NCBI GenBank assembly: GCA_001244265.2
Contig: LN717261.1
Location: 992,001 to 1,030,812, forward strand
Source: Microbotryum violaceum
Taxonomy: Eukaryota
Direction: 5' to 3'
DNA length: 38,812 bases
Shown here: piece after piece, positions 9,196 through 10,420 of the stretch
Numbering within the stretch: the stretch's first letter is position 1
Layout: each line of letters begins with the position of its first letter
Position numbers and translations under genes: made by a program
The notes under the pieces: generated by a model
What the model was told of the DNA's origin: nothing
The model's input: only the letters and a program-made list of their open reading frames with translations
Database searches by the model: none

Positions 9196-9576
9196 TGTGA
9201 CAAGTCCACTCTCAGCTCGGCAGAGGCGCCTCGGTCGGTGCGCGCACCGCTAGCCCGCCCCCCTGCGCTGGGACTTAGACGCGCGCGACTGACTCAGCGC
9301 GCCAGCGCCGGGTGGATCCGTGCGCGTGCCCACTAGGCCGCCCCTTGCGGTGGGGACTTAGGCGCGCGCGACTGCCTTAGCGCGCTAGCAACTTCACCCG
9401 CGACTGGGCCTATCCCAGCGCGGGTCCACTTTCTATTTCTTAGCTTCCCTCTCACCACTTCTGTTCAACAATCGACCTCTCCTGACAGTAGTGGTGATTG
9501 TCTCATAGGTATGCTGAAATACACCACTTCTGTTCAACAATCGACCTCTCCTGACAGTAGTGGTGATTGTCTCATA
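9196..9576 (+). repeat. 5' LTR of A1 (TGTGAC...CTCATA)
   Basis: Matches five other family-A LTRs in the window; has a 69-bp tandem duplication at its 3' end. Confidence 0.92.
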
Positions 9577-10420
9577 GGTTATTCGCCATCGACCTACCGC
9601 TGGCATGGACACGTCGTCGCCCTAACGACGGGTGCCCACCCAACAATCCCCGCCGAACAGCTCGCCGCACTTACGTCGCTGCTGTCGGGTCTCACCACTG
9701 CCACATCCGCCACGTCGTCCGGCACCTCTCGCCCCGCCTTTCCCAAGCACGCACGCTTGGATGGGCCCAAGACGTTTGCGAGCTGGACACGCCAGCTTCG
9801 CCTCTGCCTCGCGGACGACATCCGCTCATACGTCCTCGACGGGATCGTACCCGCCGACTGGACACCTTCGCACCGCTCTGCCCGCGATGTCGTGGCACGT
9901 GAGCTCCTAGCGAACTCGATCGACTCAGCCGACGTCTCGGCCGTCCTCGACCAAATCCCTACCGCCGAACTCACAGCGCCCAAAATCTATTCAACGCTGA
10001 AATCGCGGTATGCTCCGGATGACGCCACTCGCACGCTCGAGCTCTTCTCACGACTATGGAGTTTCCGGCCCATGCCCGGCACCGTTGACGAATTCGACGG
10101 TTGGATCATGGAGTTCAAAGCCATTGCGCAAGAAATCATCGATACGAAGACAACTATCAATGATGTTCTCGCCACACTCCTCCTCGCCATTGCACATCCG
10201 TCCCTCGAGAGCTTCAAGGCGTCGTTCACCGATGAACAGCGCACCCAAAGATCTCTCCCTGCCATCGATTCGCTTGCCGATCGCATGCGTGTCCAACTTC
10301 GGTCCACCAACGTCCCCAGCACTCAATCGGCCCTCCTTGCCTCGTCGTCGTCACGTCCTACCCGTCCCAAGTGTCTCGCCTGTCGCAGCCCTTCGCACCG
10401 TGTGGCGGAGTGCCCTGTGA

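What the first reader, a model, noticed from the sequence alone, without database searches (positions are those of the whole stretch)
9454..9590. U5 duplication in A and C LTRs looks like a 69-nt spliceosomal intron ending at the LTR/PBS junction
Seen: CTCATAG|GTATGC...CTGAC...CTCATAG|GTTATT (9509-9577, 69 nt). Family C has the same 69-bp period and linker (GGTATGTTGAAAT vs GGTATGCTGAAAT) plus CTGAC, although the unit sequence has otherwise diverged. Precise removal of this segment yields the single-unit LTR structure seen in A2 (16050-16364). Inference: an intron built from a tandem duplication, whose acceptor G is the first PBS base, so both spliced and unspliced RNA keep an intact U5-PBS. 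A2 may derive from a spliced RNA.
Basis: partly seen in the sequence, partly recalled or inferred. Interest (0 to 1): 0.7.

Follow-up and report, generated by a model that had tools for sequence, protein, structure and literature searches.

The report
Intron-shaped tandem repeat in copia LTR
The end of this fungal jumping gene's terminal repeat is duplicated in a way that looks just like a short intron, but nothing available shows that it is spliced, and ordinary copying slips explain the shorter copy equally well.

Summary
The Ty1/copia LTR at 9196-9576 ends in two identical 58-nt units 69 nt apart. The segment 9509-9577 reads GTATGC..CTGAC..TAG. A 5-bp target duplication on a sister element places the LTR end at 9576, so the acceptor G is the first PBS base. 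Family C (3428-3772, minus strand) has the same design. The LTR at 16050-16364 lacks exactly one 69-nt period.

Whether it is spliced cannot be told here. No run is on record as RNA. Only 31-mer contigs could be laid, and these cannot separate the one-unit from the two-unit form.

For an intron: given the fixed AG|GT ends, only 0.64% of random 69-mers carry both the donor and the branch motif, and both motifs are kept in family C.

Against: the loose motif set is common (25 in the window against 33 in simulations). The AG|GT ends follow automatically from duplicating across the LTR/PBS junction. Precise one-unit loss is what reverse-transcriptase template switching produces.

My odds are about 0.5 for an unspliced tandem repeat and about 0.35-0.4 for real splicing. 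This scan has reported the same architecture before on other DNA of this genome, also without RNA proof.

The parts
9196..9576 (+). 5' LTR of family A copy A1 (TGTGAC...CTCATA), two-unit form
   Evidence: blastn of the LTR against the window. LTR ends fixed by the TSD of the sister element.
9453..9510 (+). Unit 1 of the duplication. Its last 3 nt (GGT) are a copy of the first 3 PBS bases.
   Evidence: 100% identical to unit 2
9511..9521 (+). 11-nt linker ATGCTGAAATA. With the preceding GT it forms the donor-like GTATGC. It also holds the first ATG of the LTR.
9522..9579 (+). Unit 2, running 3 nt into the PBS
9509..9577 (+). Candidate 69-nt GT..AG intron (unproven)
   Evidence: passes the GTRNGY..CTRAY..YAG grammar; 0.64% by chance given the fixed ends
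9551..9555 (+). CTGAC branch-like motif, its A 23 nt before the acceptor G
9577..9603 (+). PBS-like region GGTTATTCGCC..., related to the anticodon-loop-type PBS of family C but differing at three loop positions
9605..9607 (+). ATG of gag. It is out of frame in A1 because of 1-nt deletions. It is in frame in the copy at 33490-33830 and in A2.
   Evidence: table 4 (+C behind 9585 and behind 9619 in most contigs)
16050..16364 (+). One-unit LTR (A2), followed by PBS and a diverged family A gag
28706..29104 (-). 3' LTR (two units) of the TSD-flanked family A element. It ends CTCATA|CCGAT, so the acceptor AG is not completed here.
37422..37807 (-). 5' LTR (two units) of the same element, preceded by CCGAT
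33635..34016 (-). Inner two-unit LTR of the LTR-gag tandem array. Both units carry the variant CAACATTCAAC.
35530..35910 (-). Second inner two-unit LTR of the array, with the same variant in both units
3428..3772 (-). Family C LTR with two units, period 69, linker ATGTTGAAATG. The candidate intron is 3495..3427 on the minus strand.
12113..12397 (+). Family B U5 array (about 72-nt units ending GAGCAG|GTGTGT, one diverged unit GTGAGC...TAACTTACTGTAG), directly upstream of the PBS at 12403

Best explanation
This is an old tandem duplication of the last 55 nt of the LTR plus the first 3 nt of the PBS, joined by an 11-nt filler.

Because unit 1 carries PBS bases inside the LTR, the duplication must have arisen on a template where U5 is joined to the PBS. 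That template was the RNA leader or a 5' LTR junction. Normal reverse transcription then copied it into both LTRs (inference).

The repeat changes copy number, and stays uniform, through homology-driven template switching of reverse transcriptase or register-shifted strand transfer. The one-unit LTR (A2) is a precise direct-repeat deletion of this kind.

On this reading the intron likeness is partly automatic. The LTR/PBS junction reads ATAG|GT, so any duplication spanning it places AG|GT at both borders. Splicing is not needed to explain anything seen in the DNA.

Shown here: the repeat, its borders, the precise one-period loss, and the two-unit state of both LTRs of a TSD-flanked insertion. 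Inferred: the reverse-transcription origin, the reverse-transcription-stage deletion, and the absence of a role for splicing.
For: The units are identical within copies. They match at 57 of 57 shared positions in 4 of 4 complete family A two-unit LTRs, at 54 of 54 in the 3' LTR, and at 56 of 57 in family C.

A2 lacks exactly 69 columns.

Both outer LTRs of the element flanked by CCGAT are two-unit, so a two-unit RNA leader was the template for that insertion.

U5 tandem arrays next to the PBS are general in this window. Family B and B' LTRs carry about four 72-75-nt units, and the family A U3 has an 83-nt repeat.

The loose intron grammar is not rare. There are 25 donors with a full partner in the window against 33.4 +/- 6.2 in 50 simulations. 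Hits include the U3 repeat and the antisense strand of the B arrays.

The conserved block between A and C extends beyond the splice motifs. The junction block is 15 of 17 identical including TGAAAT, and the 3' half of the unit is 23 of 32 identical.

Passages of the review PMC3187697 state three relevant points. Direct repeats of 50-75 bp in retroviral LTR enhancers are unstable. A 110-bp direct repeat was deleted at 41% per cycle. [quoted passage not shown]
Against: Given the fixed AG|GT...ATAG ends, only 0.64% of 200,000 random 69-mers of this composition carry both a GTRNGY donor and a CTRAY branch 8-40 nt from the end. The full motif set is therefore not automatic.

Donor, branch distance and acceptor are all kept in family C, although the units are only 39 of 63 columns identical.

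The acceptor is complete only at the 5' LTR/PBS junction. This is what an LTR-borne intron would need.

The model does not by itself explain why units stay identical within each family while families diverge. No three-unit intermediates were seen: 0 of 6 family A LTRs.

Family B and B' arrays hold a unit whose ends (GTGAGCACTAC and GGTAACTTACTGTAG) are invariant while its middle varies. That is an intron-like conservation pattern.
Confidence: 0.5

Rival explanations
1. The 69-nt segment is a genuine spliceosomal intron of the element's leader RNA. It was born from the tandem duplication and is spliced only at the 5' LTR, because its acceptor needs the first PBS base. Spliced RNA keeps an intact U5-PBS and loses the linker ATG. 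One-unit LTRs such as A2 may be reverse transcripts of spliced RNA.
For: GTATGC / CTGAC (23 nt before the acceptor G) / TAG are present in A, and GTATGT / CTGAC / TAG in C, with length 69 in both.

The chance of donor plus branch given the fixed ends is 0.64%.

The LTR end at 9576 is shown by the TSD, so the 3' LTR lacks the AG.

Removal gives the A2 structure exactly.

The linker ATG opens a 3-codon upstream reading frame in 4 of 5 family A two-unit LTRs and a 10-codon one in C. Splicing would remove it.

The host is reported to be a basidiomycete (earlier notes, unchecked). Short introns with such motifs are typical there (recalled; not confirmed in the passages read).
Against: There is no RNA evidence of any kind. 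The transcription start is unknown, so the donor may not be in the transcript.

The TSD-flanked element has two units in both LTRs, so its template was unspliced or the segment was rebuilt.

The motif grammar is common in this DNA.

Conservation around the motifs is broader than the motifs themselves.

The A2 structure is equally predicted by reverse-transcriptase direct-repeat deletion.
Confidence: 0.37
2. The two units and the conserved linker are a cis-acting RNA or DNA signal needed in two copies. Candidates are a polyadenylation or R-boundary signal in the AT-rich linker, or paired hairpins for packaging, dimerisation or primer use. The signal is kept by selection and is not spliced.
For: The linker with its flank is the best conserved block between A and C (15 of 17) and extends beyond a 6-nt donor.

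Each unit folds into a hairpin (CACCACT / AGTGGTG). The two-unit family A leader folds better than shuffles (z -2.73, 3 of 200 shuffles as good), and the one-unit A2 leader has z -3.27.
Against: The family C leader shows no excess stability (z -0.38, 61 of 200 shuffles as good).

No known motif was matched. The polyadenylation reading of TGAAATA is my guess only.

The one-unit element A2 did insert, so two units are not strictly required.
Confidence: 0.1
3. The linker ATG at 9511 is the gag start codon, so the duplication supplies the start of translation.
For: In A1 the ATG at 9511 is the first ATG of the LTR and is in frame with a 455-codon gag frame.
Against: 4 of 5 family A two-unit LTRs read ATG CTG AAA TAG, and family C stops after 10 codons.

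The ATG after the PBS is in the gag frame in the copy at 33490-33830 and in A2.

Most contigs carry an extra C behind 9585 and behind 9619 (table 4). The frame match in A1 therefore comes from its own 1-nt deletions.
Confidence: 0.02

Closest known systems
Tandem direct repeats in retroviral LTRs and their loss by reverse-transcriptase template switching (direct-repeat deletion)
   Same: A 50-75-nt direct repeat lies inside an LTR. Copy number differs between copies by exactly one unit. The loss is precise. (Review PMC3187697, passages read.)
   Different: The known cases are U3 enhancer repeats. Here the repeat is the very end of U5, includes 3 PBS bases and an 11-nt filler, and carries a full set of splice-like motifs. 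No replication assay exists for this element.
Introns created by tandem duplication of an AGGT-containing segment (Hellsten et al. 2011, PMC3265369, abstract read; potato RdRp case PMC4974935, search listing only; Rogers model, recalled)
   Same: A tandem duplication whose borders read AG|GT. Removing one period restores the original sequence.
   Different: Those cases lie in protein-coding host genes and splicing was shown. Here the duplication lies in a retrotransposon LTR, next to the PBS, and splicing is not shown.
Split-intron retroviral vectors (Ismail et al. 2000, as described in a passage of PMC3182074)
   Same: An intron whose parts are brought together by the LTR copying steps of reverse transcription. 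Splice signals placed in an LTR behave differently at the two ends of the provirus.
   Different: Those are engineered, with the donor between U3 and R and the acceptor after the packaging signal. Here the layout is natural, the whole candidate intron lies in U5, and only the last acceptor base comes from outside the LTR.
Copia-superfamily elements primed at the tRNA anticodon loop (Ty5, Drosophila copia, Pucciniales Copia and Helenus families; PMC10886601 section 3.6, read whole)
   Same: The PBS directly after the LTR begins GGTTAT. In family C it reads as the complement of an anticodon loop with anticodon CAU. TSDs are 5 bp.
   Different: The family A PBS differs at three loop positions. 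No host tRNA gene was available for comparison. The cited work does not describe U5 duplications.
Retroviral major splice donors in the leader or R region (foamy viruses; position recalled; the figure legend of PMC7828637 seen only lists an mSD)
   Same: A splice donor lies close to the 5' end of the genomic RNA, upstream of or near the PBS.
   Different: Those donors pair with distant acceptors to make subgenomic mRNAs. Here donor and acceptor are 69 nt apart and both lie upstream of the PBS.

Membership tests
Spliceosomal GT-AG intron | 5' splice site GT with consensus-like following bases | tested here: met
   GTATGC in A and GTATGT in C. Both pass GTRNGY.
Spliceosomal GT-AG intron | Branch-point motif at a suitable distance from the 3' end | tested here: met
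   CTGAC at 9551-9555, its A 23 nt before the acceptor G. The same motif sits at about the same distance in C.
Spliceosomal GT-AG intron | 3' splice site YAG | tested here: met
   TAG at 9575-9577. It is complete only where the PBS follows. The 3' LTR ends CTCATA|CC.
Spliceosomal GT-AG intron | Lies inside a Pol II transcript (donor downstream of the transcription start) | not testable with these tools
   No raw RNA reads were available. Contigs cannot show starts.
Spliceosomal GT-AG intron | Removed from RNA (junction reads, lariat) | tested here: inconclusive
   No 9508/9578 joint in 4 of 4 runs laid. All were 31-mer contigs, which cannot distinguish the joined form, and none is on record as RNA.
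Spliceosomal GT-AG intron | Length and motifs within the host's own intron distribution | not tested
   No host gene lies in the window and no genome is held. The passages of PMC4469406 read give 5.6 exons per gene but no intron lengths.
Ty1/copia LTR retrotransposon | Domain order gag - protease - integrase - reverse transcriptase | tested here: met
   Pfam hits Pol_BBD, gag_pre-integrs, rve, SH3_retrovirus and RVT_2 occur in that order on family A and neighbouring elements.
Ty1/copia LTR retrotransposon | LTR pair flanked by a 5-bp target site duplication | tested here: met
   CCGAT lies on both sides of the element 28706-37807.
Anticodon-loop (half-tRNA) primed Copia elements | PBS complementary to the anticodon stem-loop of a tRNA, directly after the LTR | tested here: inconclusive
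   Family C and its neighbour read as the complement of a loop with anticodon CAU. Family A differs at three positions. No host tRNA sequence was available, so the loop assignment is read from the window and from recall.
LTR tandem repeat subject to RT direct-repeat deletion | Direct repeat of tens of bases within the region copied by reverse transcriptase | tested here: met
   58-nt perfect repeat, 11 nt apart.
LTR tandem repeat subject to RT direct-repeat deletion | Copies that differ by exactly one unit | tested here: met
   1 of 6 family A LTRs (1 of 3 independent insertions) lacks exactly 69 nt.
LTR tandem repeat subject to RT direct-repeat deletion | Loss occurred during reverse transcription (both LTRs of the short element concordant) | not testable with these tools
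   A2 is truncated near 19627 and its 3' LTR is not in the window. This feature would not separate RT deletion from splicing in any case.
Intron born by tandem duplication of an AGGT segment | Tandem duplication with AGGT at the unit border, so that excision restores the single-copy sequence | tested here: met
   ATAG|GT stands at both borders. Removing 9509-9577 gives the A2-type sequence.
Intron born by tandem duplication of an AGGT segment | The duplicated segment is actually spliced | tested here: inconclusive
   As above.

The most novel reading that the evidence does not exclude
A self-renewing LTR intron. The duplicated U5 end is spliced from the leader of translated RNA, which removes the upstream ATG. 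It can be spliced only at the 5' LTR, because its acceptor is completed by the PBS. The unspliceable copy at the RNA's 3' end lets minus-strand DNA that started on a spliced leader land on the second unit and rebuild the two-unit LTR. This would also copy unit 1 into the unit 2 position and so explain why the two units are always identical within a family while families diverge. I did not test it.
Probability: 0.15. Interest if true: 0.85.

Novelty: new variant of a known kind. Interest (0 to 1): 0.5.

Why it matters
If spliced, this would be the first described intron lying wholly inside the U5 of an LTR retrotransposon. Searches listed no such paper, judged from titles and abstracts only.

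It would also be a natural case of an intron born by tandem duplication in a mobile element. It would show how a retroelement can use host splicing without losing the intron on retrotransposition.

In basidiomycetes it would also bear on the reported link between transposon introns, stalled spliceosomes and RNAi. That link is from Dumesic et al. 2013, seen only as cited in a passage of PMC6643885.

If not spliced, it is an ordinary, though unusually placed, LTR tandem repeat. It would then stand as a warning that duplications across an ATAG|GT junction mimic introns.

Tried and rejected
**RNA evidence**
- No RNA holder is listed among 24 runs (20 hold the stretch, from 8 studies).
- Read laying on 4 of those 24 runs (X16, X17 and X18 guessed RNA; X4 DNA) listed no 9508/9578 joint.
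- All four were 31-mer contigs, so this is no evidence either way. The only joints were 92-103-nt replacements in the U3 repeat region.
- I tried to use contig depths (unit against linker against PBS junction) and gave up. Units map to two places and depths are sums over variants.

**Whole genome**
- No genome is held for this window, so no genome-wide census of one-, two- or three-unit LTRs was possible.

**Metagenome scan**
- A scan for the U5-end/PBS 16-mer gave 119 loci.
- blastn of 9196-10000 against them matched only 20 nt in 2 of 119.
- These are chance hits and yielded no relatives.

**Linker ATG as gag start**
- Rejected; see the rival explanations.

**RNA folding**
- The two-unit family A leader has z -2.73 but family C has z -0.38.
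- There is no consistent support for a conserved structure.
- One search failed on a length limit and was repeated within the limit.

**Concerted SNPs within family A**
- The two inner array LTRs carry two changes in both units.
- These two LTRs are duplicates of each other. One change (G to A in TCGA) fits the CpG/RIP-like hypermutation reported for this fungus (passage of PMC4469406; the target-site detail is recalled).
- Only one clean parallel change remains. The strong case for homogenisation is the comparison of A with C.

**Tandem Repeats Finder**
- It did not list the repeat.

**Earlier findings**
- A look-up by sequence found nothing.

**Literature**
- Searches gave no paper on an intron in U5 of an LTR retrotransposon, judged at listing level. 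One search failed on a too-short term.
- I did not look at any supplementary files. Those of PMC10886601 (PBS figures) might identify the primer of family A.

Full report
**What is there**

The window is a dense nest of Ty1/copia retrotransposons. Pfam finds Pol_BBD, gag_pre-integrs, rve, SH3_retrovirus and RVT_2 in that order on many frames. G+C is about 0.6.

Family A has six LTR copies:
- 9196-9576 (+)
- 16050-16364 (+)
- 29104-28706 (-)
- 34016-33635 (-)
- 35910-35530 (-)
- 37807-37422 (-)

Five of the six carry two copies of a 57-58-nt unit 69 nt apart. One (A2) carries a single unit.

These six LTRs are not six events. The four minus-strand LTRs belong to one insertion flanked by the 5-bp repeat CCGAT. 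That insertion contains an internal tandem array of LTR plus 1.5 kb of gag. There are therefore three independent insertions, one of which is one-unit.

**Check of the observation**

- The repeat finder gives 9453-9510 and 9522-9579 as 100% identical, spacing 69. Tandem Repeats Finder did not list the repeat.
- The linker motif occurs 6 times in the window against 0.02 expected.
- The text of the sequence shows the claimed GTATGC, CTGAC and TAG|G.
- Family C on the minus strand (3772-3428) has the same period and a linker differing by one transition in the shared 13-mer. Its units differ at 1 of 57 positions, a C/T at a CpG.
- A2 aligns with a single 69-column gap.
- The TSD fixes the LTR as TGTGAC...CTCATA.
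- It follows that the 3' LTR lacks the AG. It ends CTCATA|CC.

**What the DNA can and cannot say about splicing**

A loose fungal-type grammar was used: GTRNGY, then CTRAY 8-40 nt before a YAG, total length 45-100 nt. It is met by 25 donors on both strands of the window. In 50 first-order Markov simulations the figure is 33.4 +/- 6.2. The hits include the U3 repeat and the antisense strand of the family B arrays. As a genome-scan signal the motif set is therefore not special.

The AG|GT at both borders is also automatic. All LTRs of this group end ...ATA and are followed by a PBS starting GGTTAT. Any duplication that spans the junction by three bases creates AG|GT twice.

The remaining features are not automatic. 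Given the fixed ends, only 0.64% of 200,000 random 69-mers of this composition have both the donor and the branch motif.

Family C keeps the donor, the branch distance and the acceptor although its unit is only 39 of 63 columns identical to that of A. Against reading this as selection for splicing, the conserved blocks are wider than the motifs. The junction block is 15 of 17 identical, including TGAAAT after the donor, and the whole 3' half of the unit is 23 of 32 identical.

**RNA**

No genome is held. The look-up of sequencing runs listed 20 holders from 8 studies, and none is on record as RNA.

I laid 4 of the 24 listed runs: three guessed to be RNA and one DNA. All are Logan contigs.
- No joint at 9508/9578 was listed.
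- Contigs do bridge unit 1, linker and unit 2 (X16 record 4, 9481-9542).
- Contigs also bridge unit 2, PBS and gag (X16 record 5, 9550-9878).

Because the unit is longer than a 31-letter word, every word of the joined form also occurs in the unjoined form. This material cannot show or exclude the junction. The question of splicing is therefore open.

**The one-unit LTR**

Families A and C share the period and the linker, so the duplication predates their split. A2 is 95% identical to the A1 LTR. By parsimony A2 is a secondary loss.

With identical units, three processes give the same sequence: splicing followed by reverse transcription, reverse-transcriptase template switching between the repeats, and unequal recombination.

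The review PMC3187697 (passages) states that 50-75-bp direct repeats in LTRs are unstable. It also states that a 110-bp repeat was deleted at 41% per cycle and that such deletion is precise. This known process suffices.

A2's own 3' LTR is not in the window, and it would not separate the first two processes in any case.

The TSD-flanked element has two units in both LTRs. At least that insertion came from a two-unit template.

**Origin**

Unit 1 ends with GGT, a copy of the first three PBS bases, inside the LTR. An LTR as such does not contain PBS bases. The duplication must therefore have arisen where U5 is joined to the PBS, in the RNA leader or at a 5' LTR junction. It then entered both LTRs through the normal copying of U5 from the RNA 5' end. 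This is inference from the standard LTR replication scheme.

**Homogeneity**

- Within a copy the units are identical: 57 of 57 in 4 of 4 complete family A LTRs, and 56 of 57 in C.
- Between families they are 62% identical.
- Within A, the two inner array LTRs carry two changes in both units.
- These two LTRs are copies of each other. One change sits at a CpG of the type hypermutated in this fungus (passage of PMC4469406; target detail recalled).

The comparison of A with C therefore carries the argument. Some process copies one unit onto the other faster than mutations accumulate.

Reverse-transcriptase slippage with expansion and contraction could do this, but no three-unit LTR was seen (0 of 6). 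Neither was tested.

**Rejected side idea**

In A1 the linker ATG is the first ATG of the LTR and is in frame with gag. In 4 of 5 two-unit copies, however, it is followed by a stop after three codons. In C the stop comes after ten codons.

The ATG after the PBS is the one in the gag frame in a sister copy and in A2. Most contigs carry an extra C behind 9585 and behind 9619 (table 4). The linker ATG is therefore at most a short upstream reading frame.

**Context in the window**

Family B and B' LTRs have three to four units of about 72-75 nt directly before their PBS. The units end GAGCAG|GTGTGT.

One diverged unit begins GTGAGCACTAC and ends GGTAACTTACTGTAG. Both ends are invariant across six copies while the middle varies. 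This resembles intron conservation, but the same block read on the other strand gives a GTAAGT donor, so its meaning is unclear.

A fourth LTR type next to family C has no U5 repeat.

**Comparison with known systems**

The nearest known things are:
- LTR tandem repeats lost by template switching.
- Introns born by tandem duplication of an AGGT segment (abstract of PMC3265369).
- Engineered split-intron retroviral vectors (passage of PMC3182074).
- Anticodon-loop-primed Copia elements (PMC10886601 section 3.6).

Searches listed no paper describing an intron inside U5 of an LTR retrotransposon, judged at listing level.

**Earlier notes of this scan**

Four earlier notes describe the same or sister architecture elsewhere in this genome and also lacked RNA data: e1-7164960, e1-7146884, e1-7146197 and e1-7165157. 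They name the host as an anther-smut fungus. I did not verify this. The DNA contig sets of 23-31 million letters are compatible with the 26-Mb genome in PMC4469406.

**Verdict**

The intron reading is anatomically sound but untested. My odds are about 0.5 that this is an unspliced tandem repeat shaped by reverse transcription. They are about 0.37 that it is spliced to a meaningful degree, and about 0.1 that it is another cis signal.

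Noticed in passing
window 12113-12397 (+), 26294-26580 (-), 4569-4856 (-), 21306-21593 (-), 19840-20043 (+), 38680-38812 (+): Family B and B' LTRs carry a U5 array of about 72-75-nt units ending GAGCAG|GTGTGT. One diverged unit has invariant ends (GTGAGCACTAC and GGTAACTTACTGTAG) across six copies while its middle varies. On the opposite strand the same block reads as a perfect GTAAGT donor.
   Followed up: partly
window 11110-11620 (+): A small LTR element with about 207-nt direct repeats 306 nt apart, each holding a tRNA-like sequence (ARAGORN, anticodon TTA). 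A TGGTAGCG-type PBS follows the first repeat, and ACGAA lies on both sides. It is inserted in the protease region of A1 and resembles the Helenus TRIMs of PMC10886601.
   Followed up: partly
window 28706-37807 (-): One TSD-flanked family A element contains a tandem array of three LTR-plus-gag units (period about 1894). The junction runs from gag position 11088-equivalent straight into the LTR start. The two inner LTRs carry unit variants that the outer LTR pair lacks.
   Followed up: partly
window 3417-3428 and 3133-3144 (-): Two copies of the same PBS (31 nt identical) lie 284 nt apart downstream of the family C LTR. The second is preceded by a different, repeat-free U5 end. This is either a nested element or a recombinant leader.
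   Followed up: no
window 9577-9603, 12404-12427, 3406-3427 (-): The three families have related anticodon-loop-type PBSs that differ in the loop: GAG in C, AAG in B, TCG in A. This suggests different or mismatched primers. The family A version matches no tRNA loop that I could name.
   Followed up: no
window 16011-16050 (+) and 3772-3804 (-): The A2 and family C 5' LTRs both begin 30-40 nt after the end of the RVT_2 domain of the element they sit in. The host element's RNase H region is missing in both cases.
   Followed up: no
window 9585 and 9619: A1 lacks a C at each of these two places compared with most contigs of four public runs. Its gag start is therefore frameshifted and this copy is probably dead.
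   Followed up: yes
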